This document shows, one piece after another, positions 27,678 through 46,271 of a stretch of DNA of 64,000 nucleotides. The notes under the pieces are model-generated. The model was given only the letters and a program-made list of their open reading frames with translations. It made no database searches and had not been told where the DNA came from. Position numbers and translations under genes: made by a program. How positions within the stretch are numbered: the first letter of the stretch is position 1; each line of letters starts with the position of its first letter. The stretch is from Escherichia coli (lineage in GTDB: Bacteria > Pseudomonadota > Gammaproteobacteria > Enterobacterales > Enterobacteriaceae), in NCBI RefSeq assembly GCF_030013205.1, contig NZ_CP122648.1; one strand, written 5' to 3'.

Positions 27678-27872
27678 TTAATTATTCTGCTGATTTTCTT
27701 CCATCTCGGCTTCTGCTGCCAGTGATTCAATTTTATCTGTGAATATTGCTGACAGTGTTGCAAATTCAGCATCAGTGACAGCGGGAATTGGAACAAACCT
27801 GATCCCGCTGTGTGCAAGCATGTTTGCAGTTTCAAGGCATTTCCTTAAATCTGATGGTGATGCCCTGTTCAT
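27678..27872 (-). CDS. small hypothetical phage protein, start overlaps the methyltransferase stop (ATGA)
   Basis: 64-aa ORF MNRASPSDLRK... read within the 27678..27992 track ORF; no recognisable domain. Confidence 0.3.
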   Translation of the reverse strand: MNRASPSDLRKCLETANMLAHSGIRFVPIPAVTDAEFATLSAIFTDKIESLAAEAEMEENQQNN

Positions 27873-28811: not shown

Positions 28812-28920
28812 TTAATCCAACCCTCTCTGAAAATTAATGCCAGCAGATAAAGCCATGCTGAAACAGAGGCCAGGAATAAGTACCATCCTGACCATTTGCT
28901 CCAGTGCCTTAGCAGCACAC

Positions 28921-29169
28921 TCATGCCGCGTTGCTCACGGGACGATATACACGTTGCTGAACAGGAGGTTTTTTACCCTGGAACTCTGCCGGGCTTGCTG
29001 CCTGACGTTCATCAAGCCAACGCTCAACTTCATCACGGTTCCATGCGCAGCGTTTATCGGTGATATACCAGCGTTTAGGAAATTCCCCTGCGCGCTCCAT
29101 ACGGTCGATAGTGCTCCATGACAGTGGAACCACCGCCAGGAGTTCCTTCTTACCTAATGCACCTTTCAT
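28921..29169 (-). CDS. AlpA/excisionase-like HTH protein
   Basis: 82-aa ORF with HTH-like segment (LSWSTIDRMERAGEFPKRWYI) typical of AlpA/Xis family; located between int and recombination genes. Confidence 0.6.
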   Translation of the reverse strand: MKGALGKKELLAVVPLSWSTIDRMERAGEFPKRWYITDKRCAWNRDEVERWLDERQAASPAEFQGKKPPVQQRVYRPVSNAA

Positions 29170-29218
29170 AAATACCTCTCTTGGTTGCAGTGCGGCGCGC
29201 GTGGCGCCGCGGTGGTGG

Positions 29219-30160: not shown

Positions 30161-30978
30161 ATGTACATATCCTGTTTGCGTGCCCACTCAGGGCGTTTAA
30201 TGATTTCCACACCGCCCCATTCATCATTGATGCGGCATTCGTGATAGGTATTCAGATCCCGGCGGAACAGAGCGTGCCCGGCATCGACATCCTGCGCATC
30301 CAGCTCGAACACGCGTACCGGATACCGACCACAATCAATGCTTTCGCTCACGGCAAGAAAGAAAAAACCATGCGGCTGACCAGTAACCCTCATTGCGCCT
30401 TCGCGGTACATTGCGTCCTGCACGTGGTAGCGGAATTCCTCGATGTGGCGTGCAAAACGGTCCATATCTGCAACCTTTTTCACGTCGACGATCACGTTGT
30501 GCTCGTTCAGCCATTTGTCTGGACGAATTCGGCACAACTCCCCCGTCTCTTCATCGTTCCAGTACATTGATGCTTCGCAGTAACCAGGTGCTTCCAGCAT
30601 CCAGCGTGCCGCCGGGTGAGCCATTGCGCTATCACGCATCAGCTCCAGTTTCCGCCACTGCTCGGCATCAAGTACCGTAATCCCCATATCCGCCACATCA
30701 CGAAGAAATTCCTCTTCGTCAGCTTTACCTTGTTTCGTCCGACGATCGAATTTCGGTGAAACAATGAAGCGTTTGTCGAACTCTCCAGGCTCCAGAAGCA
30801 GACAGTGCAATGCGGTTCCCATATCCAGTGCAGACTTTTTCTCTTCGTCTTCTGGTGCTGCCTGAACCCATTTAAGAAGCGCCGGATTCTTGGCAACCAT
30901 GTCCAGTTGCGACTTACTCACGCCGTCACCGGCGTGGTAGTCTTCGTTGCTGATGTCGAAATAAATTCCCGGTTTCAT
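30157..30978 (-). CDS. PD-(D/E)XK-type phage exonuclease (YqaJ/RecE-like)
   Basis: 273-aa ORF with acidic/lysine residues in an IVDVKK context consistent with PD-(D/E)XK nucleases; upstream partner of the annealing protein. Confidence 0.65.
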   Translation of the reverse strand: MKPGIYFDISNEDYHAGDGVSKSQLDMVAKNPALLKWVQAAPEDEEKKSALDMGTALHCLLLEPGEFDKRFIVSPKFDRRTKQGKADEEEFLRDVADMGITVLDAEQWRKLELMRDSAMAHPAARWMLEAPGYCEASMYWNDEETGELCRIRPDKWLNEHNVIVDVKKVADMDRFARHIEEFRYHVQDAMYREGAMRVTGQPHGFFFLAVSESIDCGRYPVRVFELDAQDVDAGHALFRRDLNTYHECRINDEWGGVEIIKRPEWARKQDMYI

Positions 30979-31289
30979 GCCGCGTCCCTCTGCCCATCAA
31001 GCTGATCAGCCAGATCCCAGCGGGCGATAATTGCCATTGCCTCGCGCCGGTAGGCATCCATTAGTTCTTCGAACTCAGGGCTGTCTTTAGCGGCCTCCAG
31101 TACTTCCTGGCGAACGCCTTTAACTGTTACAACGTCGAAAGTTGATGCCAGTTGATGAAGCCGGATACTCTCAATCAGTTCAACTTGTCGGTCATATAGC
31201 TGTTCTGACAGACGGTAGTCCTTGTCGAATGCCAGCATGATTTTTTGAAGATTTTTCTGCTGATTAACGTTCATTATCAGCCCTCCCAT
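30975..31289 (-). CDS. hypothetical early phage protein
   Basis: 104-aa ORF in the leftward early operon. Confidence 0.4.
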   Translation of the reverse strand: MGGLIMNVNQQKNLQKIMLAFDKDYRLSEQLYDRQVELIESIRLHQLASTFDVVTVKGVRQEVLEAAKDSPEFEELMDAYRREAMAIIARWDLADQLDGQRDAA

Positions 31290-31582
31290 ATCTCGTTATC
31301 GTTGGCCACATCGCGAGCTTCTTTGCTGACGAAAGCCCACTTAATGCCTTCCTGTAAGGTGCGGAACTTCCAGCTCATGAATCCGCATGCAGTAACGCAG
31401 TACCAACCGTTGATGATTTTCCACTGCATAACTTGTTACCTCGGTCTGTTACCGTTGAGGTAATAATTATGCGTATATGGTTTGATGTCAATAGATATGA
31501 GTTAAAAAAATTACCCGTTAGGTAATCGAATAGGCAATAAAAAAGCCGCCATAAGGCGGCTTACTTACTGAAAAATATGGTT

Positions 31583-32167
31583 TTATTGTTTGTTTTTTTC
31601 GTTCTGGTTGATGACAAATTCAATGTAACTTTCGATCTTTGCTTTCTCGGTTTCGGGTAACAATGCGTAGCGCGAGCGATCATAGTTGATGGTCGCAGGG
31701 TCGTGCGGGTGAATCAGTAATTCATAGCCGTGACGCCCGAATGCGGATGCAACATTCTCCAGGGTGGAAATGGAAACGCTGACCTCATTGTTTAACAGGC
31801 GGCTGATTGTCACCTGGGCTACGCCGGATGCGCGGTGAAGTTTTCCCTGTGTTGAAAGGTCGCGGCTTTCGCTCATCCAGCGTTCCAGGTTGTGAGCCGC
31901 CAGCTGGCCAATGTCGCTTGGGCCGACAGGCTGAAAACCTTCCTGAGAAAGCGAGCGATCGATATCAAGCCAGTTACGGGGTTTATTGGCGGCAGCTTCA
32001 ATTTTTCGTGCAACCTGGTCGCCGATAACCTTCTTGCCAAGAGCCCAGCGGTTTACCAGATTTGCCTGAGTTCCAAGTTTTTCAGCCATCCGCGTCTGAA
32101 CACCATTGAATTCACGGTCGATCAAGTCGTTGAGATTTTGCCTGCGGACGTCCTGGATACTTTTCAT
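31583..32167 (-). CDS. prophage repressor with two HTH domains and no peptidase domain
   Basis: N-terminal XRE-like HTH (TRMAEKLGTQANLVNRWALGKK) and second HTH-like segment (GVAQVTISRLLNNE); divergent from a cro-like gene with operator-like palindromes between them. Confidence 0.65.
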   Translation of the reverse strand: MKSIQDVRRQNLNDLIDREFNGVQTRMAEKLGTQANLVNRWALGKKVIGDQVARKIEAAANKPRNWLDIDRSLSQEGFQPVGPSDIGQLAAHNLERWMSESRDLSTQGKLHRASGVAQVTISRLLNNEVSVSISTLENVASAFGRHGYELLIHPHDPATINYDRSRYALLPETEKAKIESYIEFVINQNEKNKQ

Positions 32168-32221
32168 TTTCTGGAAAATCGCCTCATATATGAATCAGTA
32201 GATGATTCAATTTAAAGCAAT

Positions 32222-32286
32222 ATTACCCAACAGGTAAATGCACCTCATAGGTAACTATCCTTGATTTTTGTTACCTTATGGGTGAA
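32222..32286. promoter_or_regulatory. immunity-region operator cluster (three ATTACC-N5-GGTAAT-like sites)
   Basis: Sites at 32222-32238, ~32240-32255 and 32270-32286 in the repressor/cro intergenic region; OR1-3-like layout. Confidence 0.5.
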
Positions 32287-32321
32287 TATTTATTATCTGA
32301 AATAAATATCAGGCAATAGCT

Positions 32322-32552
32322 ATGAGCGATAACGGACATTTCGATTTCAAAAAGCACTGGCTTGCACTTACTCCGGATGAGCGTGAAGCCTTCGCACAGG
32401 AAGCCGGAACGACGAGTCACTATATCCAGACTCACTTAACAGGTAAGCGCAAAATGCCAGGTAAAGTATTGATGAATGGGCTTTTTAAAGCCTGTAAAAC
32501 AAGACAATGGCTGCGCTCAAAAGCAGAACTGGCATACTTCTTCTACTCATGA
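32322..32552 (+). CDS. Cro-like small DNA-binding protein
   Basis: 76-aa ORF divergent from the repressor; first gene of the rightward early operon. Confidence 0.5.
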   Translation: MSDNGHFDFKKHWLALTPDEREAFAQEAGTTSHYIQTHLTGKRKMPGKVLMNGLFKACKTRQWLRSKAELAYFFYS

Positions 32553-32702: not shown

Positions 32703-32903
32703 ATGGAAATCATTACACGTATTGATGCCGCAAAGCGCGGACTTAAACGCTACTACACCGGAAAACCATGCAAGCACGGACATGACAGTGAACGCTGGGT
32801 TTACAACGGACACTGTGTTGAGTGCACCATGGAATCAAACCGTCGTATCAGGGCAGAGATTAAGCAGATCATGATTAATTCCTCCCCACAACATTCAAGC
32901 TGA
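32703..32903 (+). CDS. small Cys/His-rich phage protein
   Basis: 66-aa ORF (MEIITRIDAAKRG...) with CKHGH...CVEC; preceded by an operator-like site at 32608-32623. Confidence 0.4.
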   Translation: MEIITRIDAAKRGLKRYYTGKPCKHGHDSERWVYNGHCVECTMESNRRIRAEIKQIMINSSPQHSS

Positions 32904-32918
32904 TAGCGGAGATTAATC

Positions 32919-33752
32919 ATGAGCAGACATGCAACAGATTGGGCCTGGGAGACAGATCCAGGTAGCTCGTCATTAAAGCTCATACTGCTCTCGATGGCTG
33001 ACAGAGCCGATGAATATAACCTCTGCTACCCCAGCATAGAACGCCTCGTTAAAGACACTTGCCTGAATAAAAAAACCGTGCAGGCCGGGCTTATATCGCT
33101 CATGAAAATGGGGCTTATTTCAGATACCGGAGAGAGAAAGGGAGCGACGAAAAGAGTGCGGGTTTTCTCTCTTAATATAACCAAAAACGGGAACATTAAA
33201 GGCAACCGGGAAGGGGGTAATGGACCCGAAAACGGTAATGTTACCGAAAACGGTAATGTTACCGAAAACGGGAATATACCCAAAAACGGGATGTTGAATG
33301 ATCCCAAAAACGGGATGTTGAATGATCCCAAAAACGGGATCCAGAACCAGTCATATAACCAGTCATTTAACCAAGAGAGGGAGAGCAGGACAAAAAGCGG
33401 GGATTCTGTGCCTCATGACCCCGGCGCAAACAACGCCGTGATGAATAACTTTGTTCCTCCTGGTGGGCCAGGGCAATTAGGCAAATTTGTCATGCATGAA
33501 CAATGGCAGCCATCAGATGACTTTCTTCGGAAAAGCTCATTGCAGGGGATCTACCTGGACAGTCTGCCAACGGCACAGGAACTTGCAGAGTTCAGAATTT
33601 ACTGGATGGCTGAGGGTAAGGCATACCATCAGGCACAGTGGGAGCAGAAGCTGGCAAGGCGGCTGCAGATTAGCAGACAGAAGCAATCAACATTACCTGA
33701 TAACAACGTTCCGCACTGGAACAGCCCTGAAGCATGGGAGGATTTCTTGTGA
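32919..33752 (+). CDS. replication initiator (lambda O-like) with in-gene iterons
   Basis: N-terminal winged-helix-like region (LKLILLSMADRADEYNLCYPSIERL), internal DNA iterons, immediately upstream of a P-like gene. Confidence 0.6.
   Translation: MSRHATDWAWETDPGSSSLKLILLSMADRADEYNLCYPSIERLVKDTCLNKKTVQAGLISLMKMGLISDTGERKGATKRVRVFSLNITKNGNIKGNREGGNGPENGNVTENGNVTENGNIPKNGMLNDPKNGMLNDPKNGIQNQSYNQSFNQERESRTKSGDSVPHDPGANNAVMNNFVPPGGPGQLGKFVMHEQWQPSDDFLRKSSLQGIYLDSLPTAQELAEFRIYWMAEGKAYHQAQWEQKLARRLQISRQKQSTLPDNNVPHWNSPEAWEDFL
33226..33345. repeat. iteron array (3 x 18 bp + 3 x 24 bp) inside the O-like gene; candidate ori
   Basis: gaaaacggtaatgttacc repeats followed by cccaaaaacgggatgttgaatgat repeats; encodes GNVTEN/GMLNDPKN peptide repeats. 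Confidence 0.6.
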
Positions 33753-34534
33753 ACAACGTTTTTACCGCGATACAAAACCGTGACGGAGAAGCCCTTTCTC
33801 GCATGTCAGGTTATGAGCATCAGTACGTCAACAATGACAATGTGGTGAACATGTCAGCAGAGAGGCTTGTTGATGCCCTTTTTAAACAGCTGAAACAACT
33901 GTTTCCGGCGGCAGTGGTAACCAACCTGAAGACGCCAGAGCAGGAAGTTGCTGCAAAACAGCAGTGGATTGCTGCGTTTGCCGAAGGGGGGATCCGAACC
34001 CGTGAACAGGTTTCTGCTGGTATGCGCCACGCCCGCGCCAGTGAGTCTCCGTTCTGGCCGTCGCCAGGGCAATTCATCAAGTGGTGTAAAGACAGCAAGA
34101 TGGTTCTTGGCGTCACCATTGACGATGTGATGGCGGAGTTTCACCGGTACAGCAAGGAAAAAAGTTTATATCCTGGTGGTCCCGAAAGATTCCCGTGGCG
34201 ACATCCGGTTATGTACTGGGTCGTATGTGATACCCGCCGTGCAATGTATCAGCGCCAGCTTAGCGAGATTGAGGTTGAGAAACACGCGCGCAGGCTGCTC
34301 GATGATTGGGCGAAAAAGGTGGCTTCCGGACAGCAGATACCCGATCCGGTGATCAGCATACAGGCAAAGCCAGAGCCCATGAGTACGCCTCCGGACACAG
34401 GGAGAGACGTTTACCATCCACCAGGGCGAAGTTTCGGGTGTATGCCTAACGCCGCCACCCTGGGGGGAATAACACCGGCGCAGTGGCTGATAGAGGAATA
34501 CAGGCGGGGAAAGGCGGCAGGATTTATCAAGTAA
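33734..34534 (+). CDS. replication protein P-like (helicase loader)
   Basis: Segment REQVSAGMRHARASESPFWPSPGQFIKWCKD closely parallels the recalled lambda P segment MEQVNAGMRVARRQNRPFLPSPGQFVAWCRE. Confidence 0.75.
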   Translation: MGGFLVNNVFTAIQNRDGEALSRMSGYEHQYVNNDNVVNMSAERLVDALFKQLKQLFPAAVVTNLKTPEQEVAAKQQWIAAFAEGGIRTREQVSAGMRHARASESPFWPSPGQFIKWCKDSKMVLGVTIDDVMAEFHRYSKEKSLYPGGPERFPWRHPVMYWVVCDTRRAMYQRQLSEIEVEKHARRLLDDWAKKVASGQQIPDPVISIQAKPEPMSTPPDTGRDVYHPPGRSFGCMPNAATLGGITPAQWLIEEYRRGKAAGFIK

Positions 34535-34651
34535 TACCAGCGCGATAGCGCATTTTTTTACGTCTCAATAATTACCCATCGGGTAACAAAACATTCTAAA
34601 CTCTATTGATTTCGTGTCTTATGTGGTTTTTAATTACCTTAGAGGTAAATC

Positions 34652-34996
34652 ATGAGAAAACAGATACAGGCTCTTGGTCGACTCAAAACAGGCCAGATGA
34701 ACAAAACAGAATCTGCGTATTGCCAGCACCTTGAGCAGCGTAAACGTGCAGGGGAAATCGCCTGGTATCGATTCGAGGGTATCAAGCTGCGGTTAGCTGA
34801 CAACACGTTCTATACGCCCGATTTTGCTGTGATGCTCGCCACCGGCGAGATGGAACTGCACGAAGTGAAAGGTTTCTGGACCGACGACGCCAGGGTGAAA
34901 ACCAAAGTCGCCGCAGATCAGTATCCGTTCCGAATCATCGGGGTAACGGTTAAGCCAAAGAAAGCAGGTGGTGGCTGGAACATCGAAGAGTTCTGA
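34652..34996 (+). CDS. hypothetical phage protein (DUF1064-like)
   Basis: 114-aa ORF preceded by two operator-like sites (34571-34587, 34633-34649). Confidence 0.4.
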   Translation: MRKQIQALGRLKTGQMNKTESAYCQHLEQRKRAGEIAWYRFEGIKLRLADNTFYTPDFAVMLATGEMELHEVKGFWTDDARVKTKVAADQYPFRIIGVTVKPKKAGGGWNIEEF

Positions 34997-35057
34997 ATCG
35001 ACGATCTTTTTAGTTATCAATGTAATCAATAAGTTATGTGGATAAGCGAGGGTAAAG

Positions 35058-35447
35058 ATGGAAAGTAATATCAAAGGGTTAGTTGCCGCCGGGCATGAGA
35101 TGGCTTCGGAACTGAAAGCAGAATGTGGTGCCGTTGATATGCGTAGTGTGGCAAAACTGATCAGCGATTTGGCAACGCAACTGGAAGTGCAACTGGTGCG
35201 TGCTAATGCGCTGGCAGCGGAGAATGCAAAGCTGAAGGATTACCTGGCCCCTATAGGGCTGAAGGTTGAAGGGACTCCAACCACCGACGCTGTCCTGGCT
35301 GAAATTGAACGCAAAGCAATCCGCAAGTTCATTAACAGCATTGAACACATCCTGCGTGACAAGTTATCACCGTATGACACCGAAGAGATGCTTGAGGCTA
35401 TGCGTATTTTTCTGGAAGAACAGGGAGGTGAGCAAAAATGGCAATAA
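35058..35447 (+). CDS. hypothetical phage protein (coiled-coil)
   Basis: 129-aa ORF in the nin-like region. Confidence 0.4.
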   Translation: MESNIKGLVAAGHEMASELKAECGAVDMRSVAKLISDLATQLEVQLVRANALAAENAKLKDYLAPIGLKVEGTPTTDAVLAEIERKAIRKFINSIEHILRDKLSPYDTEEMLEAMRIFLEEQGGEQKWQ

Positions 35448-35755
35448 CAAAGCAACGTGTAGAAGAAATCATATCCCGTATTGAAATGTATGGGCATGGC
35501 GCAGGGTATACAGTCGAAGAGGTTTATGACCTTGCTGTACTGGCGCTGAATTTATCAAATATCGCAAAACTCAAGCGATACGAGCTTGATATGGATGGTT
35601 GTGACTCGTTCGGTCAGGATTGTGGCGCTGACATGACTGAAGATTCTGATGGCGATTATGTCCTGTTTGATGACGTGGTTAAGTTGTTTGAGTTTGATAC
35701 AACCACTCAGAAGTTAGAAAGCACAGCAAAGGAGGCAGCCAGTGAGCGAGATTGA
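35438..35755 (+). CDS. hypothetical phage protein
   Basis: 105-aa ORF overlapping its neighbours' ends. Confidence 0.4.
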   Translation: MAITKQRVEEIISRIEMYGHGAGYTVEEVYDLAVLALNLSNIAKLKRYELDMDGCDSFGQDCGADMTEDSDGDYVLFDDVVKLFEFDTTTQKLESTAKEAASERD

Positions 35756-36317
35756 CTATCAGGCACTGCGTGACAAGGCAGAGAAAGCAACGTGTGGTGA
35801 GTGGTCGATCGAATATGGAGATGGCAGCTTTGATGGTGATGATGCACTAATTCATCGCGAGGCTGCTGGATATATTCCCATTTGCAGAATTGAAGGAGCG
35901 CATCCTGAAAGCGGTTTCGATGAAGATTTCCAAATGGAACAGCAGGCCAATGCTGAATTCATCGCTGCAGCCAATCCGGCTACCGTCTTGGCGCTGCTTG
36001 GCGAGCTGGAAGCAGCAAAAAAGCGCATAGCAGAACTGGAAGCCGAACTCGTAAGCCAAACTTACAAGTTGAACGAGCTATCGGGCAACTCTCCGGTAAC
36101 TCCGGATGGTTGGATAAGCTGTAGTGAGCGAATGCCGGATAGCAAAACAGCCGTTCTTGTTGCCAGGGAGTTTGACAGGAAAGGTGACTGGCGAATGAAA
36201 TGGGCGACTTACATCCCTGGGCATCCTGACGCTAATGATGGGTGGATAATTCCTGGTGCGTCGTGGATACCATCACACTGGATGCAACTACCAGAACCGC
36301 CGCAGGAGGCGAAATGA
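35742..36317 (+). CDS. Ead/Ea22-like protein with DUF551-like C-terminus
   Basis: Motif ANAEFIAAANPATVLALLGELEAAKKRIAELE and C-terminal W-rich domain typical of lambdoid Ea22-like proteins (from memory). Confidence 0.55.
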   Translation: MSEIDYQALRDKAEKATCGEWSIEYGDGSFDGDDALIHREAAGYIPICRIEGAHPESGFDEDFQMEQQANAEFIAAANPATVLALLGELEAAKKRIAELEAELVSQTYKLNELSGNSPVTPDGWISCSERMPDSKTAVLVAREFDRKGDWRMKWATYIPGHPDANDGWIIPGASWIPSHWMQLPEPPQEAK

Positions 36318-36407
36318 TGGACTATTCACAGTTAAGTGATTTTGAAATTAACAGAAGAGGCGAAATGATGGACTATTCACAGTTAAGTGATTTTGAAATT
36401 AACAGAA
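36306..36407. repeat. exact 51-bp tandem duplication spanning a stop/start junction
   Basis: gaggcgaaatgatggactattcacagttaagtgattttgaaattaacagaa occurs at 36306-36356 and 36357-36407. Confidence 0.9.
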
Positions 36408-36718
36408 TGGTAGGAGACATAATTTTTAAAGGCCTTTGGGCGTGTAAACCGGAAACATCAGGGAATAACACCAACAAATGGTATTACGGAAATACTGATA
36501 CAACTTTTGAGCCATTAAACCCTTTACCTGACTACTGCAATAATCCATCGGATGCATGGCCTATTATTGTTGATAATAAAATCAGTCTAACCTGCCACCA
36601 CTCTCGCGGTGAGTGGTCAGCAGTTTTTAATGCCGACAACATTTGCTTTCATGCGAATAATCCACTCCGAGCCGCCATGATTGTATTTCTCATGATGCAG
36701 GAAAATCAGAATGGCTAA
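36314..36718 (+). CDS. hypothetical phage protein carrying a 17-aa N-terminal duplication
   Basis: ORF begins MMDYSQLSDFEINRRGE-MMDYSQLSDFEINRM; start overlaps the upstream stop (ATGA). Confidence 0.45.
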   Translation: MMDYSQLSDFEINRRGEMMDYSQLSDFEINRMVGDIIFKGLWACKPETSGNNTNKWYYGNTDTTFEPLNPLPDYCNNPSDAWPIIVDNKISLTCHHSRGEWSAVFNADNICFHANNPLRAAMIVFLMMQENQNG

Positions 36719-37115
36719 ATCAGCAGCAGAGCGCAAAGCCGCTCAGAGAGCCAGACAAGCTGCATCTGGCGTGCGTAAGCTGGAAATTGTGCTTGATGCT
36801 CAGGAAATTGAAATGCTGGAGCGTAACTGTGCCACGCGTCGCCCCGGGCGTGCGCCTTACGAATTTGGTGAGTATATAGCGTTACTGATCCGCCAGGATG
36901 ATGCACGCGTGCGCGGGCGTATAAAATCGATCAGCAGAAAACGTTGCGGTAAGTGCGGCGAGATAGTTCCTGTGAATTCATGCCCGTGTACCGTACCCAT
37001 TACAAATGGGACAACGGACTTGCTCTGCGTGACTGGCGTTATGTTGTTCGCATTGCAAACATCGATGTCAGCAATCTTTCAGAACCTTCCTCTGCCGCAA
37101 ATATTGCGAAGTTGA
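36711..37115 (+). CDS. hypothetical basic protein; possible gene remnant at a deletion junction
   Basis: 134-aa ORF whose 3' part overlaps the next ORF in another frame. Confidence 0.3.
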   Translation: MAKSAAERKAAQRARQAASGVRKLEIVLDAQEIEMLERNCATRRPGRAPYEFGEYIALLIRQDDARVRGRIKSISRKRCGKCGEIVPVNSCPCTVPITNGTTDLLCVTGVMLFALQTSMSAIFQNLPLPQILRS

Positions 37116-37333
37116 TGGTTAAAGCACTGCATCGCATTCCAAATCGTGGCATGGGTCGCCCGGTGTTCTACATGAACCGCACTGTAGGCCAGGCTCTTGA
37201 TCTGCAATCTCTGGAGAAAACATCTCTGGCGATCAGCGTAAAAGAGACAGAAGGCGAGTGGTGGACTTCATTCCGTGGTGTACCAATCCGTGAAACTGAT
37301 GCGCTTCTGGAAACAGAAGCCCGCGTGGTGTAA
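36953..37333 (+). pseudogene. possible 3' remnant of a head/structural gene
   Basis: 126-aa ORF with no proper 5' context and an overlapping upstream ORF; no terminase or portal gene precedes it. Confidence 0.3.
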
Positions 37334-37384
37334 CGCCTGTTATTAACCTGTGGGTCGTAACAGACCCACTAATGGAGAAAGAAG

Positions 37385-37753
37385 ATGATCACCGACAAAC
37401 TGTTGATGTTCTCCGAAGCTCAGGCGGTTACGAATACCGCGGCTTCTACTGACGTAATCGATCTCGGTCCAATTGACGGAAAACGTCGTGATATCGGCGT
37501 GGGTTACCCGCTTGAGTTTTGGGCGCTGGTTAACACAGCCGCCGCGGCAAGCGGTGATGCAACTGTAAACATCCAGTTGCAGGCGAGTGAGAATAACAGC
37601 TCATGGACCACTATTTATGATAGTGGCGCACTGGCAAAGACCGCCCTGACAGCAGGTAAACGAGTTGTTTCTGCAAAGGTGCCTGCCGGTGTTCAGCGAT
37701 ATCTGCGTGTTAACTACTCCGTCGCAACTGGCCCACCGGGACAATTACGTTAA
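37385..37753 (+). CDS. hypothetical virion-associated protein
   Basis: 122-aa ORF with RBS-like gagaaagaag upstream. Confidence 0.4.
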   Translation: MITDKLLMFSEAQAVTNTAASTDVIDLGPIDGKRRDIGVGYPLEFWALVNTAAAASGDATVNIQLQASENNSSWTTIYDSGALAKTALTAGKRVVSAKVPAGVQRYLRVNYSVATGPPGQLR

Positions 37754-37794
37754 CGGCAAGCGCCTCTATTTTTGGCGCGGAGCAGGTAGGCAAA

Positions 37795-38391
37795 TTGTTC
37801 TATCTGGAACAGCCTGCAGTGGATTCTGTGCCGGTAACCAGCAATACCGCTGTAGTGGTTCGTGCCAACAGGAACGTCCCGCCATCCCTCAGGAATACGG
37901 CCACCACGAACTGGCAGATGGCGCGCCGGACATTTGGAGGCCTGTCTCATCTTGAAGGCCAGACCGTAAACATTCTCTCTGATGCGAGCGTGGAACCACA
38001 GAAAGTGGTTTCCGGAGGTGCCGTCACGCTGGAATCTCCGGGGGCTGTAGTGCACATCGGCCTGCCAATAACTGCTGAATTCGAAACACTGGATATCAAC
38101 ATTAACGGACAGGAAACGCTGCTGGACAAAAAACAGGTGATCCCCTCCGTTACTCTGGTTGTGAATGCCAGTCGCGGCATCTGGGCGACTACGCCTGGCG
38201 GTAAATGGTACGAATATCCACAGCGTGAATTCGAGTTCTACGATGATCCTGTTGATGATGCTACCGGAAAAGTAGAAGTGAAACTGGACAGTAACTGGGG
38301 CAAAAACGGACGTGTAAAAATCCGTCAGCTTGATCCGTTGCCGCTGTCTGTTCTTGCCGTTATTCCTCGCCTTACTGTTGGGGGATTTTGA
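37795..38391 (+). CDS. hypothetical structural protein
   Basis: 198-aa ORF in the structural cluster. Confidence 0.4.
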   Translation: MFYLEQPAVDSVPVTSNTAVVVRANRNVPPSLRNTATTNWQMARRTFGGLSHLEGQTVNILSDASVEPQKVVSGGAVTLESPGAVVHIGLPITAEFETLDININGQETLLDKKQVIPSVTLVVNASRGIWATTPGGKWYEYPQREFEFYDDPVDDATGKVEVKLDSNWGKNGRVKIRQLDPLPLSVLAVIPRLTVGGF

Positions 38392-38855
38392 TGATCGACG
38401 TTAAAATTATTCCCGCTACCGAAGAGCATCTTCAGATGATTTTGCCGGATGTTCGTCAGGCTGATATTGACGAACTGTATGCGGTATCGCTGATGACTAC
38501 CGAAGATGCGCTGCGTGTTGGTCTGCGCACTGCGACTATGGCCTGGTCAGGGTTCGCGAACGGAGAACTGGTAACCATGTTTGGTGTATCTCCGGCGTCA
38601 ATGATCGGTGGCAATGGTACGCCTTGGCTGGTAGGAACCAGCCGTATTGAAAAATATCAGAAGACATTTCTTCGCCACTGCCGACCTGTATTGCAGCAGA
38701 TGCTGGCAGTTTATCCGCGCCTGGAAAACTACGTCGACGAGCGAAACCATGTTGCCAAAGCATGGCTGCACTGGCTTGGATTCAGGCTTGAAGAAGCCGC
38801 GCCTTATGGTGCTCTTGGTCTTAATTTCCACAGATTTCACATGGAGAGAAAATAA
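38388..38855 (+). CDS. hypothetical virion protein
   Basis: 155-aa ORF, stop/start overlap with neighbours. Confidence 0.4.
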   Translation: MMIDVKIIPATEEHLQMILPDVRQADIDELYAVSLMTTEDALRVGLRTATMAWSGFANGELVTMFGVSPASMIGGNGTPWLVGTSRIEKYQKTFLRHCRPVLQQMLAVYPRLENYVDERNHVAKAWLHWLGFRLEEAAPYGALGLNFHRFHMERK

Positions 38856-39400
38856 TGTGCGATCCGGTTATTGCTGGTGGCGCAATGCTCGCCATGAGTG
38901 GCATTCAGGCATACACCCAGTACCAACAGGGAAAGTATGCCTCGAAGGTTGCAGAAGCGAACGCAGATATAGCCACAGCTCAGGCAAATGATGCAATAAA
39001 CAGAGGTAACGCTGAAGCTGAGCAACGGCGCAGAGAGACGCGACAGCGGCTTGGTACACAGGCGGCGACAATGGGGGCGACCGGCGCTGATTTATCTACC
39101 GGTAACGCGCTGGATATATTTGGTGACACTGCTCAGTTTGGCGCTCTTGATTCGCTGACGACGGTGAATAACGCGCAACGCGAGGCTTACGGTTATCAGG
39201 TTCAGGCTGCCAACTATAAAGCAGAAGCCAGTTCAGCCCGTAAACAGGGGAATGTGGGAGCAGCAACAACATTGCTCACTGCGCCTCTGAAGGCATACGG
39301 TGCGTACCAGATGTTTGGTGGGACGTGGAGTCCGTTTACTCAAAGCACCCCCGCGCCAATCAGGGCAGCAGCAGGAACCAGATTACCCGGAGGATTATAA
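38855..39400 (+). CDS. internal virion/ejection protein (small)
   Basis: 181-aa Ala/Gln-rich protein directly upstream of the SLT-domain protein, as in podovirus ejection-protein sets. Confidence 0.45.
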   Translation: MCDPVIAGGAMLAMSGIQAYTQYQQGKYASKVAEANADIATAQANDAINRGNAEAEQRRRETRQRLGTQAATMGATGADLSTGNALDIFGDTAQFGALDSLTTVNNAQREAYGYQVQAANYKAEASSARKQGNVGAATTLLTAPLKAYGAYQMFGGTWSPFTQSTPAPIRAAAGTRLPGGL

Positions 39401-42021
39401 TGCCAGTCGTACCAACAGTATCCGGACGTCAGGTTGAGAGCCGTGGAGTTCAGTCAGCAGGCTTGCAGACGTTTTCTCAGCCAGGTATTGGTGATGCTTT
39501 TGTTCGGGCAGGGACAGAGGCAATTGATGTTCTGGGTCAGGCAAAACAGCGCGCCAATATTGCCTTGATTCAGGAGGCATCCCTTAAACTCAGTCAGACA
39601 GGCAGTGATCTGCTGAATAATCCTGAAACAGGATTGCTTAACCTGAAAGGGAAAAATGCTATTGGAAAAGGTCAGGAGTATACGCAGCAGTTTGATGCCC
39701 AGGTCGAGCAACTGGCTATGTTGCTGCCGGATGAACAGGCTCGTAATGCTTTCATGCAGCAGGCGCAGCAGCAGCGCATTCAGTTCACTACGCAGGCCGG
39801 GAGGTACGAAATAGGACAGGTTCGCCAGTATGAGGCGGATATGCAGGATGCGACACTAAAAAACCTATCGATGCAGTTCCGTAACCCGACAATGGCAAAC
39901 CAGGCAGGATTGAAGGCATATCATAGCATCATCGCTTACGGCGAAGCCCACGGCCAGAGTCAGGAAGAGATCGAACAGAACTGGGTTTCGTGGCGCGAGA
40001 ATGCCGCGAACGGTGCGGCGGAGGCGTGGTATGTGCCGATGTATCAACAGATGATGGGTCCGAACGGCAAGATTGAGGTAACCGATACACCGAGTGAGGC
40101 GCAGTTATTCTCTGCAATAATCTGGCAGGAGAGTGGCGGAAATCAGTACGGAAAGGACGGAACACCTCTGGTGTCGCCAAAAGGCGCTGTTGGCGTAGCG
40201 CAGGTGACGGAAGATACTGGCCCCGAAGCTGCCCGCCTTGCTGGCGTGCCGTGGGACCGCGATAAATGGTTGAATGACCCGCGCTATAATGCCCGCTTGG
40301 GGCAAGCTTATTTCGGCGCGCAGATGAAGAAATACGACAATAACCCGGTTCTGGCAGTAGCTGCCTATAACGCTGGCCCAGGAAAGGTTGACGGCTGGAT
40401 TAAACAGATTGGCGACCCGCGCACAGGCGAAGTCAGTAACGCCCAGTTTGCCGCAGCTATCCCATACGACGAGACGCGCAATTATGTGGCAAAAGTAACT
40501 GGCAGTGCTGGAGCTATTCCTGGATCTGCGACGATGGAAAACCTCATCGCACAGCCATTCTGGAACGCCATGAGTCCGGACAAAAAGTCGCAGATGATGA
40601 GCAAGGTTGCTGGCATGTACGACATGCAGGCTTCAGCCGGTCGCGTTGCGCTACAGAGTCGAATGCAGGACGACCTATCCAAAATTGAGGCCGGTAAGCA
40701 GGTGACGCCTATTTCAGCGCACGAATGGGCCGCCGTTATGCCGCTTCAGGCAGCGCCTGCCGAGCGCCTGCAGATGGAAAAAACCTTCCAGCAATACCAG
40801 CAGGCAATGACGCTACAACCTGTTTATCAGACCATTATGCAGGGCAACGTCCAGCAGGGTACCGCCGCCGTGCAGGCAATGGCACCGCAGGAAAACGCCC
40901 CTGACTTTAAATACAAAGCAGAGCTTTATGCATCGGCAAAGGTCAAGCTTGGGCAGGTACTGAAGGCGCGGGAAGCGGATCCGGGGGCATGGCTGCAACA
41001 AAACTCTCCGGTTGTGCAGGCTGCATTCCAGCAGTACCTGAATGACCCTTCATCTGGTGAATACCTAGTTTCCCGCATACAGTCTGAAAAAGACCGCCTG
41101 GGGATAATGAGCAAAAAAGTTTTACCGGAGTCCATGGTCAATGATGTACTGCAGCGTATTGACAACACGCAGGAATCTAGCGTTAAGGCCATTCAGTCGG
41201 TGGCGCAGTCGTTCGGCAAATACTCGGATCAGGTGATGCGGCAGGTGCAAAATAAAGCATTCCCAGCTTTAAAGGTTGTAATGTCTACAGAAAACCAACG
41301 GGCAGCAGATGCGTTGTGGCAAATACGGAATGTACCTACTTCTGATTTGAGATCTGGTTTGGATAAAAACCAGGCAGACAGTGCAGACTCATCGTGGACA
41401 GATCAATTTAAAGATTTTTCTTCAACTCTTATTCCTCAGAGAAATGGTGCTGAAAACTGGACTATTTATAACGAGCAGGGAAAACGCTTGACCTACAACT
41501 ACATGCAGCGCGGAATGTCGGCGTCTGATGCAGCAAAACAGGCGTATCAGGACCTTCTCGGCGAGCAGTACCAGACCAATGGCACTTGGCGGCTACCTAA
41601 TCGTGCAGGGGTAGATATTCGTGACGTTAACGATGGTGCCAATGCGTATCTGAAAAACCTGTCAGCAGATCAGATTATGCCGCTTATTGGTGACCCAAGG
41701 CTACCTGATGAGGTCAACCGTGAGCAGAGTATCTCCCGCATTCGTGATAATGCGCAGTGGGTTACCAACAGCGACGAAACAGGACTTACCCTGATGCTCA
41801 ACGGGCTGATCGTCAACGGTGCCGACGGCAACCCGATTACGGTGACGTTCAACGATCTGGCGAAACTGGGAACAACCAACCGATCAGTATGGAACCGCAT
41901 TACCAAGTTCATTGATACTCCGGTGAAATATACTCCCGGACAGTCTAAGGAATACAGCGCAGAAAGTCAGCGCGACAACCTGATTAACATTTTCCAGAAC
42001 GGCCAGCAATCAGGACGATAA
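39400..42021 (+). CDS. internal virion protein with soluble lytic transglycosylase (SLT) domain
   Basis: SLT motifs AIIWQESGGNQ...GAVGVAQV and AYNAGPGKV; start set at MPVVPTV where ATG overlaps the upstream stop. Confidence 0.7.
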   Translation: MPVVPTVSGRQVESRGVQSAGLQTFSQPGIGDAFVRAGTEAIDVLGQAKQRANIALIQEASLKLSQTGSDLLNNPETGLLNLKGKNAIGKGQEYTQQFDAQVEQLAMLLPDEQARNAFMQQAQQQRIQFTTQAGRYEIGQVRQYEADMQDATLKNLSMQFRNPTMANQAGLKAYHSIIAYGEAHGQSQEEIEQNWVSWRENAANGAAEAWYVPMYQQMMGPNGKIEVTDTPSEAQLFSAIIWQESGGNQYGKDGTPLVSPKGAVGVAQVTEDTGPEAARLAGVPWDRDKWLNDPRYNARLGQAYFGAQMKKYDNNPVLAVAAYNAGPGKVDGWIKQIGDPRTGEVSNAQFAAAIPYDETRNYVAKVTGSAGAIPGSATMENLIAQPFWNAMSPDKKSQMMSKVAGMYDMQASAGRVALQSRMQDDLSKIEAGKQVTPISAHEWAAVMPLQAAPAERLQMEKTFQQYQQAMTLQPVYQTIMQGNVQQGTAAVQAMAPQENAPDFKYKAELYASAKVKLGQVLKAREADPGAWLQQNSPVVQAAFQQYLNDPSSGEYLVSRIQSEKDRLGIMSKKVLPESMVNDVLQRIDNTQESSVKAIQSVAQSFGKYSDQVMRQVQNKAFPALKVVMSTENQRAADALWQIRNVPTSDLRSGLDKNQADSADSSWTDQFKDFSSTLIPQRNGAENWTIYNEQGKRLTYNYMQRGMSASDAAKQAYQDLLGEQYQTNGTWRLPNRAGVDIRDVNDGANAYLKNLSADQIMPLIGDPRLPDEVNREQSISRIRDNAQWVTNSDETGLTLMLNGLIVNGADGNPITVTFNDLAKLGTTNRSVWNRITKFIDTPVKYTPGQSKEYSAESQRDNLINIFQNGQQSGR

Positions 42022-42022
42022 C

Positions 42023-43720
42023 ATGCCAATTTACACAGATGATCCGGGACAGGGAATTAACCAGCCAATTGGCAACGCGCCAGCAGGGCTTGGCGAATCG
42101 CTGCTTTCTTCCCTTAAGCAGGGATTTGAAGAGGGGCCGGTCATGTCCGGCTACCGTTTTGCGCAGGCCGACTCGCTGGCGAATGACCCAAACTCTACAG
42201 TTATCAGTAAGCAGGAAGCGGATGAGCTCCTGAAGCAGTACGGCGTAAAGAGCATAAACGTGCCAGATTCTGGCGTTACGCAGGCTTTTCTCGATCATGT
42301 TATTGCCGAACGCAAAGATTCTCTGGCACGCCAGCAGATCGCGATGTCGGCACCGAGCGGGTGGGTAGCCACGCCGCTTAATTTCGCAGCCAGCCTAGCT
42401 GGTTCAATGGCAGATCCTGGTAACGTGGCGCTGGCGCTGGTTCCGTTCGCTGGAGAAGCAAAGGCGGCTTCTGTGCTTGGCCGATTTGGCGAGCGATTTG
42501 TTGCTGGTGCACGCATGGGGGCAGCGCAGGCGTTGGTGACCGTGCCGCTTACCGGGCTGGCAGCGGCGGCGGAAGGTGACGACTTCACCTATAGCAACGC
42601 GTTGGAAAGTACTTTCTTTAACACGATGGCTGGCGGTCTAATGCATGCCGGCGGCGGCCTTATCGCCGATATCGTGCGACCGCGTCGCGTTCCCGATGCT
42701 GCAACGGGAGAGTCCCCGGCGTTTTCTGGCGATGCGCAGCCAACCCCGGTGATAACGCCTGACAACATTCCGGCGGGCGTGAATATCCCTGAGGTTGGCG
42801 CTAACGCAGATCTGGCGGCGGCCATTTCCAGTGAAGCGGAGAGCTACGCATACAGCCGGGCTTATGACGACGTGGTTCCTGACTATATGGCGCGCCAGCA
42901 GGAGTTACAGAGCGGGCAGATCGGTAACGTTGCCGACCTGCGTGCCGAGCTTGCGGCTAATCAACGTCATGCTGACTCGCTTGATGCGACGCTGCAGCAG
43001 CGCACCAAAAAGTATCAGGGGCAGCGGATGAAGTTTAAGGATGCGCGCTCTAGGGCACTGAAAGAGATTCAGGCCGAGAAAGACGCCATCGCTGCACGCA
43101 ATCAGGAGATCAACACATCGCTGGAGCAGAACGCGACAGCAGAGCAGGCGCGCTGGCGCCAGTCTCAGATTTCCCGCGGCGAGATCCCCGACGACCTGAA
43201 AGTCACCATTTCCGAGCGTGCGCAGCAGATCCTGGACGGCATGCAGATGTCTCCGGTCGCTGGCGCAGTTCGCACTGCCGCAAGCGCCATCAGGGATGCT
43301 GACTGGAGCGTGAACCAGCAGGCGTATCGCGCTGCGCTGGCACACATGATGGAAGGACGTATCCCAGATGTTGAGCCCTTCTATGAACTGCACAAACCGG
43401 CACTGCGTGAACGCGCCATCCATCGCATACAGAACCCGGCACGGCAGGTTGATGAAACGGCTCGCCCAGCAAGCGAAACAGCCGATCGGGTTTATCAAGA
43501 AACGCAAAAGGCAGATCATGAAATTACCGCTGCCGCTGCAGACCTTGATAACGAGCTCAACCTGAGTAACGCACTGCTTGACGATATCGCTGTCGATAAC
43601 CCTGATCTTGCGACCACGTTGCGCCAGAAACTCAATGATATTCGTGCCGACGCCAGCGACAATAGCATGAGCAACGCTTTCCGGGCATTTGCCGCCTGTA
43701 TGATTAACCGGGGGATGTGA
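42023..43720 (+). CDS. internal virion/ejection protein
   Basis: 565-aa ORF, Ala-rich, translationally coupled within the core-protein operon. Confidence 0.45.
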   Translation: MPIYTDDPGQGINQPIGNAPAGLGESLLSSLKQGFEEGPVMSGYRFAQADSLANDPNSTVISKQEADELLKQYGVKSINVPDSGVTQAFLDHVIAERKDSLARQQIAMSAPSGWVATPLNFAASLAGSMADPGNVALALVPFAGEAKAASVLGRFGERFVAGARMGAAQALVTVPLTGLAAAAEGDDFTYSNALESTFFNTMAGGLMHAGGGLIADIVRPRRVPDAATGESPAFSGDAQPTPVITPDNIPAGVNIPEVGANADLAAAISSEAESYAYSRAYDDVVPDYMARQQELQSGQIGNVADLRAELAANQRHADSLDATLQQRTKKYQGQRMKFKDARSRALKEIQAEKDAIAARNQEINTSLEQNATAEQARWRQSQISRGEIPDDLKVTISERAQQILDGMQMSPVAGAVRTAASAIRDADWSVNQQAYRAALAHMMEGRIPDVEPFYELHKPALRERAIHRIQNPARQVDETARPASETADRVYQETQKADHEITAAAADLDNELNLSNALLDDIAVDNPDLATTLRQKLNDIRADASDNSMSNAFRAFAACMINRGM

Positions 43721-46269: not shown

Positions 46270-46271
46270 TA

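What the first reader, a model, noticed from the sequence alone, without database searches (positions are those of the whole stretch)
36700..38400. Prophage appears to lack terminase, portal and an intact major capsid gene
Between the nin-like early genes (to ~36.7 kb) and the internal virion genes (from 38.8 kb) there are only short ORFs with frame overlaps. No ORF in the element has a terminase Walker A/ATPase or portal-sized product; the three largest proteins are ejection-type proteins. At ~29 kb the element is about 10 kb shorter than recalled epsilon15-like genomes (~39 kb). Together with the acyltransferase remnant this suggests a decaying, non-inducible prophage that retains accessory and lysis genes.
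Basis: inference. Interest (0 to 1): 0.55.

Follow-up and report, generated by a model that had tools for sequence, protein, structure and literature searches.

The report
Deletion-crippled phiV10-like prophage in pig ETEC
This is an ordinary defective prophage: three clean deletions removed about 10 kb holding the terminase, portal, protease, most of the capsid gene and the tail-adaptor genes. Sister strains preserve the intermediate stages of the decay.

Summary
The window comes from E. coli ETEC4079, a pig isolate from Belgium. Positions 26217-55378 (29,162 bp) are a phiV10-like (Uetakevirus) prophage at the 3' end of guaA, flanked by the 17-bp att repeat.

Three deletion junctions lie between the early genes and the internal-virion genes:
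- D1 (36989/36990) fuses the regulator gp55 to capsid codon 215. It removes terS, terL, a tRNA-Arg, portal and protease.
- D2 (37734-37736) removes the cement 3' end, staple, adaptor and nozzle 5' end.
- D3 (37834-37836) removes 1,290 bp inside the nozzle gene.

About 10.0 kb is missing in all. No terminase, portal or protease homologue exists anywhere in the 64 kb. Everything else in the prophage is full length.

Sister genomes that are nearly identical elsewhere show stepwise decay. ETEC4070 carries D2 only. ETEC4069, ETEC4067, ETEC1748 and K_EC180 each add different private deletions.

"Non-inducible" is untested, because the excision, replication and lysis genes are intact. The acyltransferase "remnant" is weak and also sits in an intact relative.

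One thing is unexplained. The later deletions in this clone almost all join at TA, often within a CGG(N)TA|GC context, and some breakpoints recur.

The main finding is ordinary and scores low.

The parts
26217..26233 (+). attL core ATTGAGTGGGAATGATT, overlapping the 3' end of guaA
   Evidence: A 17-bp exact direct repeat with 55362-55378. It is the same core reported for Uetakevirus ZX5 at guaA (PMC9782041).
26424..27674 (+). Integrase, intact
   Evidence: 99.5% aa identity to phiV10 p31 over the full length. PGAP calls it a tyrosine recombinase.
27678..31429 (-). Early-left operon, all genes full length: DUF1382, MT-A70 methyltransferase, PerC, AlpA-type HTH, RecT, PD-(D/E)XK nuclease and two small ORFs
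   Evidence: tblastn at 97-100% identity to phiV10 p32-p39; PGAP annotation.
31583..32552 (.). Immunity region: repressor (31583-32167, minus strand) and cro-like gene (32322-32552, plus strand), both intact
   Evidence: 100% aa identity to phiV10 p40 and p41.
32703..36718 (+). Early-right operon: DnaT-like initiator, P-like protein, DUF1064, three small ORFs, ead/Ea22-like gene and NinX. NinX carries a 51-bp tandem duplication at 36306-36407.
36711..36989 (+). gp55-type transcriptional regulator, truncated: codons 1-93 of 112. It reads on into out-of-frame capsid DNA as far as 37115.
   Evidence: blastn to phiV10 38766-39045. phrog_536 positions 2-97 of 115. PGAP pseudogene 'missing C-terminus'.
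36989..36990 (.). Deletion junction D1, microhomology TA. It removes 6,802 bp relative to ETEC4070 and 5,094 bp relative to ETEC1748. Lost: the gp55 3' end, a terminator-like hairpin, a 70-aa ORF, terS, terL, tRNA-Arg, the p06 homologue, portal, p08, protease and capsid codons 1-214.
   Evidence: No tRNA is left in the element. No other of the 5,426 complete E. coli genomes matched across this junction.
36991..37333 (+). Major capsid protein remnant, codons 215-328 of 328
   Evidence: tblastn 100% identity to phiV10 p10 residues 215-328. phrog_212 C-terminus. PGAP pseudogene.
37385..37735 (+). Bbp16-type capsid cement protein remnant, codons 1-117 of 145
37734..37736 (.). Deletion junction D2, microhomology CAC, 1,937 bp. 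It removes the cement 3' end, p12, staple p13, adaptor p14 and the first 175 codons of nozzle p15. This is the founding lesion, shared with ETEC4070, 4071, 4069, 4067 and 1748.
37737..37833 (+). Retained island of about 100 bp of nozzle gene p15 (codons 176-209)
   Evidence: blastn 100% to phiV10 9587-9689; tblastn.
37834..37836 (.). Deletion junction D3, microhomology GTA, 1,290 bp (430 codons) inside p15. Not seen in any of the related prophages examined.
37837..38391 (+). C-terminal remnant of nozzle/tail protein p15 (about codons 640-823)
   Evidence: tblastn 96.8% identity. phrog_15566 positions 363-552 of 552. PGAP pseudogene.
38388..46832 (+). Intact internal-virion / ejection module: p16-like (155 aa), T7 gp14-family core protein (181 aa), SLT-domain protein (873-898 aa), 565-aa protein, 850-aa virion protein and a 186-aa protein
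   Evidence: Full-length PHROG matches. Gene lengths match those in the intact GPEC1337 prophage. The module occurs in 60 E. coli genomes but has no near-identical match in the phage collection.
46869..50420 (.). Low-GC accessory cluster: small membrane/secreted proteins, a phrog_3630 protein, a Bro-N antirepressor, a 242-aa zinc-ribbon protein and a 91-aa protein
   Evidence: No PADLOC hits.
50598..52967 (+). Tailspike, intact (789 aa)
   Evidence: phrog_1640 full length. N-terminal head-binding part 59% identical to phiV10 p25.
53088..53297 (-). Possible N-terminal scar of an O-antigen acyltransferase. Weak, and old.
   Evidence: Pfam Acyl_transf_3 E = 0.12. The spacer is shared with 12 other genomes, including the intact EC5654 prophage.
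53454..55251 (+). Lysis cassette, intact: two holin-like proteins, a GH19 endolysin and a spanin
   Evidence: Full-length tblastn at 83-95% identity to phiV10 p27-p30; PGAP annotation.
55362..55378 (+). attR core

Best explanation
Positions 26217-55378 are a phiV10-like (Uetakevirus) prophage integrated at the 3' end of guaA. It has been made defective by three illegitimate-recombination deletions with 2-3 bp of microhomology.

Shown:
- D2 (1.9 kb) came first. It destroyed the cement, staple, adaptor and nozzle genes.
- D1 (5.1-6.8 kb) and D3 (1.3 kb) were seen only in ETEC4079 and came later. They removed the packaging and head-assembly genes: terS, terL, portal, protease and two thirds of the capsid gene.
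- The short overlapping ORFs at 36.7-38.4 kb are the leftover gene ends.
- The immunity, integration/excision, recombination, replication, ejection-protein, tailspike and lysis genes are intact.

Inferred:
- The element cannot build capsids, package DNA or assemble a tail, so it is fixed in the chromosome.
- It probably still confers repressor immunity. On SOS derepression it could still excise, replicate and lyse the cell without releasing particles.
- Late expression may be altered. D1 truncates the gp55 regulator and removes a terminator-like hairpin that normally separates the early-right genes from terS.
For: - Colinear blastn map against phiV10 with three abrupt coordinate jumps.
- Base-level junctions against exact ancestors.
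- tblastn with all phiV10 proteins shows the head and packaging set absent from the whole window.
- PHROG hits to C- or N-terminal parts only for the four fragments.
- PGAP independently flags the same four CDS as partial.
- ETEC4070 carries D2 only and is otherwise 99.98-100% identical.
- Intact relatives sit at the same att site.
- 493 E. coli genomes hold at least 80% of the 11.2-kb head-tail module, so intact is the normal state.
- att repeats are present and match published attP/attB (PMC9782041).
- The terminator-like hairpin at the start of terS in ETEC4070 lies inside D1.
Against: - D1 and D3 rest on a single assembly and no reads were available, so an assembly error cannot be formally excluded.
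- No expression or induction data exist, so every statement about residual immunity, excision, replication or lysis is inference from intact reading frames.
- The function of gp55 is unknown: no Pfam or NCBIfam match, only the PHROG label 'transcriptional regulator'.
Confidence: 0.9

Rival explanations
1. D1 and D3 are assembly artefacts, and the real ETEC4079 prophage looks like ETEC1748 or ETEC4070.
For: No other of the 5,426 complete genomes matched across these junctions. No reads were available.
Against: - The junctions are clean with 2-3 nt of microhomology, like the deletions in the other genomes.
- Sister assemblies from the same project each carry different private deletions.
- An unrelated Korean assembly of the same clone, K_EC180, also carries deletions of the same type.
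- Even if D1 and D3 were artefacts, the prophage would still be defective through D2, which six assemblies share.
Confidence: 0.04
2. The element is a functional satellite-like parasite. It has shed its own head and packaging genes and is mobilised by a co-infecting phiV10-like helper.
For: It keeps integrase, an excisionase candidate, replication genes and both att sites. These are the minimum a satellite needs.
Against: - It has no small terminase, and all DNA around terS is gone. In relatives of this kind the pac site is expected there (inference).
- It has no capsid-size-redirecting or helper-interference genes.
- The 'short ORFs' are random gene stumps, not a conserved compact architecture.
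- The arrangement occurs in 1 of 5,426 genomes, and each sister has a different layout. That is the opposite of a transmissible element.
Confidence: 0.03
3. This is adaptive domestication. The lineage is selected to lose virion production while keeping modules useful to the host: immunity, accessory genes, tailspike and lysis.
For: - Several pig-ETEC lineages independently carry morphogenesis-defective versions that all keep integrase, immunity, tailspike and lysis genes.
- The first four deletions mapped cluster within 10.9 kb, simulated P about 0.04.
Against: - The private deletions share no common target. ETEC4069 and ETEC4067 lost replication and nin genes instead. K_EC180 lost three ejection genes. 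ETEC4068 lost the whole ejection module.
- The retained genes are identical or nearly identical in sequence, so there has been no time for purifying selection to be visible.
- The clustering P is weak and post hoc.
Confidence: 0.12

Closest known systems
Escherichia phage phiV10 and relatives (genus Uetakevirus: ZX5, PAS61, phiv142-3, TL-2011b)
   Same: - Same integration site and 17-bp att core.
- 97.8% nucleotide identity over 9 kb of integrase-to-replication genes.
- 97-100% identity in the surviving head and tail fragments and in p16-p17.
- Same gene order.
   Different: - About 10 kb of the packaging, head and neck module is missing.
- The nin region, ejection proteins p18-p20, tailspike receptor-binding part and accessory genes are mosaic replacements.
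- There is no oac gene.
Salmonella phage epsilon15
   Same: Same overall architecture. About 72% nucleotide identity across p15-p18.
   Different: Much more distant than phiV10.
Cryptic or defective prophages of E. coli such as Rac, DLP12, Qin and e14 in K-12 (established knowledge)
   Same: A prophage fixed in the chromosome after deletion of morphogenesis genes, with regulatory, recombination and lysis genes retained.
   Different: This one is very young. The remaining genes are 99.98-100% identical to those of sister prophages, and the intermediates still exist in sister strains.
Phage satellites (P4-like, PICI / cf-PICI) (established knowledge)
   Same: Small size. Has integrase and replication genes but lacks terminase large subunit, portal and capsid.
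   Different: No satellite-specific genes, no own packaging signal or terS, contains gene stumps, and is not conserved as a unit.

Membership tests
phiV10-like (Uetakevirus) prophage | [quoted passage not shown] | tested here: met
   Direct repeats at 26217-26233 and 55362-55378. The core is identical to that published for ZX5.
phiV10-like (Uetakevirus) prophage | Colinear nucleotide homology with phiV10 in the integrase, early, replication and lysis modules | tested here: met
   9,035 bp at 97.8% identity and 2,055 bp at 88.3% identity.
phiV10-like (Uetakevirus) prophage | Complete packaging / head / neck module (terS, terL, portal, protease, MCP, cement, staple, adaptor, nozzle) | tested here: not met
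   No tblastn hits for terS, terL, portal, protease, staple or adaptor. Only fragments of MCP, cement and nozzle remain. The element is a derivative of the family, not a viable member.
Defective (cryptic) prophage | Prophage origin, with at least one essential virion or packaging gene destroyed | tested here: met
   Three mapped deletions.
Defective (cryptic) prophage | No infectious particles on induction | not testable with these tools
   Needs mitomycin C or carbadox induction followed by a plaque assay, electron microscopy or qPCR.
Phage satellite (P4 / PICI type) | Dedicated helper-exploitation genes and its own packaging signal or small terminase | tested here: not met
   No terS. No relevant PHROG or PADLOC hits.
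Phage satellite (P4 / PICI type) | The same compact architecture recurs in many unrelated genomes | tested here: not met
   The full arrangement occurs in 1 of 5,426 genomes. Sisters differ from one another.

The most novel reading that the evidence does not exclude
The decay is not random microhomology-mediated loss. It is driven by a sequence-specific breakage-and-rejoining activity acting on this prophage in a pig-ETEC clone.

What was seen:
- After the founding deletion D2, six of six further mapped deletions of at least 1 kb with microhomology ending in TA join at TA: D1, D3, DP, DR, DK1 and DK2. A seventh, D67, joins at TAGC.
- TA is the rarest dinucleotide in the prophage.
- Eight of 15 TA breakpoints lie in TAGC/GCTA, against a 9.9% background. 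Six fit GG(N0-2)TAGC.
- Two pairs of independent events reuse the same breakpoint. DR and DK1 share window 36141|36142. D67 and the ETEC6333 inversion share the site at about window 34797, in the DUF1064 gene.
- Deletions tend to come in pairs that leave islands of 0.1-0.75 kb.
- TA is self-complementary, so one activity could give both the deletions and the inversion.

This pattern would fit a nuclease or recombinase with a TA-centred site, encoded by the phage or the host. The DUF1064 protein, the RecT/PD-(D/E)XK pair and terminase are candidates by position only. No known E. coli system that I could name accounts for it.
Probability: 0.2. Interest if true: 0.6.

Novelty: new member of a known kind. 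Interest (0 to 1): 0.25.

Why it matters
The defective prophage itself matters little. Deletion-inactivated prophages are commonplace, and the NCBI annotation pipeline already flags these fragments as pseudogenes.

It has two modest uses. First, this clone gives an unusually complete natural series: intact relative, then one deletion, then several alternative further deletions, with almost no point mutations between them. That makes it a clean case for measuring how fast and by what route a prophage erodes once it is grounded. Second, if the TA / CGG(N)TAGC junction signature and the reused breakpoints reflect a real enzyme activity, they would point to an unrecognised source of structural mutation in prophages of livestock pathogens.

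Tried and rejected
- Pfam and NCBIfam on the intact gp55 regulator, the 70-aa ORF upstream of terS, NinX, and the accessory proteins 47124-47990, 49395-50123 and 46869-47102: no informative hits.
- PADLOC on ten accessory and nin proteins: nothing.
- phiV10 Oac against the 69-aa ORF: no similarity. Pfam gives only E = 0.12.
- Megablast of the ejection module against the phage collection: no near-identical phage. It was found only in E. coli chromosomes.
- Test for clustering of deletions in the head module: P about 0.04 for four events. It was then undercut by private deletions in the replication and nin region of ETEC4069 and ETEC4067. I do not claim that the head module is targeted.
- A selection target common to all lineages: the deleted intervals share no common segment.
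- Rpn (YhgA-like) nucleases as the source of the junction signature: reported to lack sequence specificity (PMC5350276).
- Other candidates considered from memory and found not to fit a TA core or an IS-free junction: IS10 or IS5 target preferences, integron secondary sites, RuvC or RusA specificity, gyrase cleavage consensus, REP/RAYT, serine resolvases, IS-excision enhancer. None of these was tested.
- Literature search for the strain names found nothing. A search for TA-junction deletions in bacteria found nothing relevant.
- Technical note: loci fetched in parallel, or fetched before an intervening fetch, were not copied to the scripting machine. Several regions had to be fetched again.
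Full report
**Identity of the window and the element.** Megablast against complete E. coli genomes places the window in the chromosome of strain ETEC4079 (pig faeces, Belgium; NZ_CP122643.1) at 100% identity. Positions 1-26 kb hold pbpC to guaA and positions 55.4-64 kb hold yfgI to ppk1. These are ordinary chromosomal genes. Between them lies a prophage bounded by an exact 17-bp direct repeat, ATTGAGTGGGAATGATT, at 26217-26233 and 55362-55378. That is the attachment core published for the Uetakevirus vB_EcoP_ZX5 at the 3' end of guaA (PMC9782041). The element is 29,162 bp long. Its best matches in the phage collection are phiV10 and its relatives; epsilon15 is only about 72% identical over a short stretch.

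**Checking the observation.** A blastn map of the window on phiV10 (39,104 bp; annotation) is colinear from attP through integrase, the early-left genes, repressor, and replication genes into DUF1064: 9,035 bp at 97.8% identity. It is colinear again through the lysis cassette. In between it makes three abrupt jumps.
- Window 36711-36990 matches phiV10 38766-39045, the gp55 regulator.
- 36989-37736 matches 6905-7652, the capsid 3' third and the cement 5' part.
- 37734-37836 matches 9587-9689, an internal piece of tail gene p15.
- 37834-39818 matches 10977-12961, the p15 3' end, p16, p17 and the start of p18.

The 'short ORFs with frame overlaps' are therefore the stumps of four genes. PGAP independently marks the same four CDS as incomplete. 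PHROGs match only the corresponding N- or C-terminal parts of the family profiles. tblastn with all phiV10 proteins finds nothing, anywhere in the 64 kb, for TerS, TerL, portal, p08, protease, p12, staple p13 or adaptor p14. ARAGORN finds no tRNA in the element, although intact relatives carry a tRNA-Arg between terL and portal.

**Small corrections to the observation.** The first intact internal-virion gene starts at 38388, not 38.8 kb. The third-largest product is the tailspike (789 aa), not an ejection protein.

**What happened, and in what order.** Six other complete genomes carry the same prophage at the same site, with the same IS1 in the neighbouring yfgH gene. They show only one or two base differences from the window over 36-44 kb.
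- ETEC4070 has only one lesion, D2. This is a 1,937-bp deletion with microhomology CAC. It removes the cement 3' end, p12, the staple, the adaptor and the first 175 codons of the nozzle. By the same match pattern, ETEC4071 looks the same.
- D2 is shared by all six Belgian isolates, so it is the founding, inactivating event.
- Relative to ETEC4070, the window strain has a 51-bp tandem duplication in NinX, deletion D1 and deletion D3.
- D1 is 6,802 bp relative to ETEC4070 and 5,094 bp relative to ETEC1748, which had already lost part of that interval. Its microhomology is TA.
- D3 is 1,290 bp with microhomology GTA.
- D1 fuses gp55 codon 93 to out-of-frame capsid sequence. It removes terS, terL, the tRNA, portal, p08, protease and capsid codons 1-214.
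- The three deletions sum to 10,029 bp. That implies an ancestor of about 39.1 kb, the size of phiV10.
- No other of the 5,426 complete genomes matched across D1, and D3 was absent from every relative examined.

**Intact relatives and the normal state.** Intact relatives at the same att site exist in SCZE5, GPEC1337 and EC5654. GPEC1337 carries the same ejection-protein module as the window. A search with its 11.2-kb head-tail module finds 493 E. coli genomes with at least 80% of it. An intact module is the norm.

**State of the rest of the element.** Every other gene has the length seen in intact relatives and in phiV10.
- Integrase: 99.5% aa identity.
- Repressor and cro-like protein: 100%.
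- AlpA-type HTH protein: 100%.
- RecT and its nuclease partner.
- DnaT-like and P-like replication proteins.
- The six-gene internal-virion / ejection block: full-length PHROG matches.
- The tailspike.
- The holin-holin-endolysin-spanin cassette: 83-95% aa identity.

The ejection block has no near-identical counterpart in the phage collection but occurs in 60 E. coli genomes. It is a mosaic variant, not a decay product.

**How it most likely behaves (inference).**
- Without terminase, portal, protease, a whole capsid protein, adaptor or nozzle, no head, no packaging and no tail are possible.
- The immunity and early modules are intact. The lysogen should still be immune to homo-immune phages. 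SOS derepression could still give excision, replication and lysis.
- D1 also removes a strong terminator-like hairpin at the start of terS in ETEC4070 (GCCGCCAACTATGGCGGC followed by a T-run). It truncates gp55, whose only annotation is the PHROG label 'transcriptional regulator'. Late-gene expression may be altered in either direction.

**The acyltransferase remnant.** The 69-aa ORF at 53088-53297 (minus strand) gives only a marginal Pfam hit to the first 50 positions of Acyl_transf_3, E = 0.12. It shows no similarity to phiV10 Oac. The tailspike-holin spacer that contains it is shared by 13 genomes. These include EC5654, whose prophage appears complete. If it is a scar, it predates the recent decay and should not be counted as evidence for it.

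**Rival explanations.**
- *Assembly error.* This cannot be excluded for D1 and D3 without reads. It is unlikely, because analogous private deletions occur in every sister assembly and in an assembly from another laboratory. The element would still be defective through D2.
- *Satellite lifestyle.* This is not supported. There is no terS, no satellite-type gene and no conservation of the arrangement.
- *Adaptive domestication.* This cannot be ruled out. However, the deletions in different lineages have no common target, and the retained genes have had no time to show purifying selection.

**Noticed along the way: a burst of private rearrangements with an odd signature.** Each member of the clone except ETEC4070 (and, by the same match pattern, ETEC4071) has its own further lesions.
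- ETEC4069: DR, 3,113 bp, from the DnaT-like gene into ead/Ea22.
- ETEC4067: D67, 1,234 bp, from DUF1064 into ead/Ea22, plus loss of one 24-bp repeat copy.
- ETEC1748: DP, 1,708 bp, an in-frame portal-protease fusion. It is unique among 5,426 genomes.
- K_EC180 (Korea): DK1, 7,066 bp, and DK2, 5,001 bp, leaving a 459-bp island of p15.

Structural events therefore far outnumber point changes.

**The junction signature in numbers.**
- The microhomologies are TA (D1), GTA (D3), TTA (DP, after correcting the BLAST overhang), TA (DR), GGATA (DK1), TA (DK2) and TAGC (D67). Only the founder D2 (CAC) differs.
- TA is the rarest dinucleotide in the prophage (4.8%).
- The chance that a 2-nt microhomology is TA is about 0.036. 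Five of seven gives a binomial tail of about 1e-6, or about 4e-5 after a generous post-hoc correction.
- Of 15 distinct TA breakpoints, 8 lie in TAGC/GCTA against a 9.9% background, P about 3e-5. Six fit GG(N0-2)TAGC, a pattern that covers only 38 of the 1,615 TA sites.

**Recurrent breakpoints.**
- The right end of DR and the left end of DK1 are the same phosphodiester bond, CCGGATA|GCAAAAC, at window 36141|36142.
- The left end of D67 coincides with both ends of an inversion in a different lineage, ETEC6333. The site is GCGGTTAGCTGAC in the DUF1064 gene. Read against the ETEC-type sequence, those junctions are CGGTTAGC and TA.

**Exceptions and status.** The third ETEC6333 junction and the two mapped junctions of ETEC4068/4075 are not TA. 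I could not assign this signature to any known E. coli activity. Rpn nucleases are reported as non-specific (PMC5350276). The other candidates I considered from memory do not fit a TA core with IS-free junctions. I report the signature as unexplained. All of its statistics are post hoc.

**Verdict.** It describes an ordinary, very young defective prophage: a new example of a well-known kind. Interest is low. It is raised slightly by the preserved stepwise series and by the unexplained junction signature.

Noticed in passing
Window junctions 36989/36990 and 37834-37836; also L004, L009, L013, L015 and L016: Deletions that arose in this clone after the founder D2 join at TA (TA, GTA, TTA, TA, GGATA, TA, TAGC). 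Eight of 15 TA breakpoints lie in TAGC/GCTA, often as CGG(N)TA|GC. The post-hoc probabilities are about 1e-6 and 3e-5. No known mechanism was identified.
   Followed up: partly
Window 36141|36142 (ead/Ea22-like gene) and about 34797 (DUF1064 gene): Independent rearrangements reuse the same breakpoints. ETEC4069 DR (right end) and K_EC180 DK1 (left end) break at the same bond. ETEC4067 D67 (left end) and both ends of the ETEC6333 inversion fall in GCGGTTAGCTGAC.
   Followed up: partly
L009 (K_EC180), L013 (ETEC4069), L015 (ETEC4067), L004 (ETEC1748), L016 (ETEC4070): Each sister genome of the clone carries different private deletions in the same prophage, while differing by only one or two bases over 36-44 kb. 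ETEC4070 has the founder deletion only. The set is a natural stepwise decay series.
   Followed up: yes
L010 (ETEC6333); L014 and L017 (ETEC4068, ETEC4075): Other pig-ETEC lineages carry independently wrecked versions of the related guaA prophage. ETEC6333 has an inversion from DUF1064 to the p20-like gene, plus loss of the terminase-to-capsid genes. ETEC4068 and ETEC4075 lack the terminase genes (that region was not fully mapped), have a deletion inside portal, and lack everything from mid-capsid to the end of the ejection module. All keep the integrase, immunity, tailspike and lysis genes.
   Followed up: partly
Window 36306-36407: A perfect 51-bp tandem duplication inside the NinX gene adds 17 in-frame codons (GEMMDYSQLSDFEINR repeated). 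It is shared with ETEC1748 only and is absent from ETEC4069, 4067 and 4070.
   Followed up: yes
Window 42023-43720: PGAP names this 565-aa virion / ejection-module protein 'exodeoxyribonuclease VII large subunit', and in other genomes 'V-type ATP synthase subunit E family'. It matches phrog_3003 over its full length and weakly matches an internal virion protein. The RefSeq name looks like a mis-annotation.
   Followed up: partly
Window 46869-50420: A low-GC (about 41-46%) accessory cluster sits between the ejection genes and the tailspike. It includes a 242-aa protein whose C-terminus has two zinc-ribbon repeats, like the zinc-binding N-terminus of endonuclease VII / HNH proteins, but no recognisable nuclease domain. 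There are no PADLOC hits.
   Followed up: partly
Window 53088-53297 (minus strand): A 69-aa ORF weakly resembles the N-terminus of Acyl_transf_3 (E = 0.12). The spacer that contains it is also present in the apparently intact EC5654 prophage, so it is an old scar if it is a scar at all.
   Followed up: yes
Window 56026-57119 and 58174-60416: An IS1 is inserted in yfgH just outside attR, and pdeF is frameshifted with an internal stop. Both are shared by the clone, including K_EC180 for the IS1. The ETEC6333 and ETEC4068 lineages lack the IS1 insertion.
   Followed up: no
Window about 47030-47123: The window-to-RefSeq coordinate offset changes by one base between 46.8 kb and 52.9 kb. Comparing PGAP and ORF coordinates places the change at about 47030-47123. 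The window therefore differs from NZ_CP122643.1 by a 1-bp indel in or near an intergenic stretch (compared).
   Followed up: no
L016 14594-14611 (ancestral sequence, deleted from the window by D1): A strong terminator-like hairpin sits at the very start of terS, between the early-right genes and the late genes. Its loss could let early transcription run into the remaining late genes.
   Followed up: no
L006 (GPEC1337): This chicken isolate appears to carry two phiV10-like prophages in tandem. A second integrase and early region follows directly after the lysis cassette of the first.
   Followed up: no
Window about 33279 (DnaT-like gene): A 24-bp tandem repeat (CCCAAAAACGGGATGTTGAATGAT) varies in copy number between sisters. 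ETEC4067 has one copy fewer.
   Followed up: no
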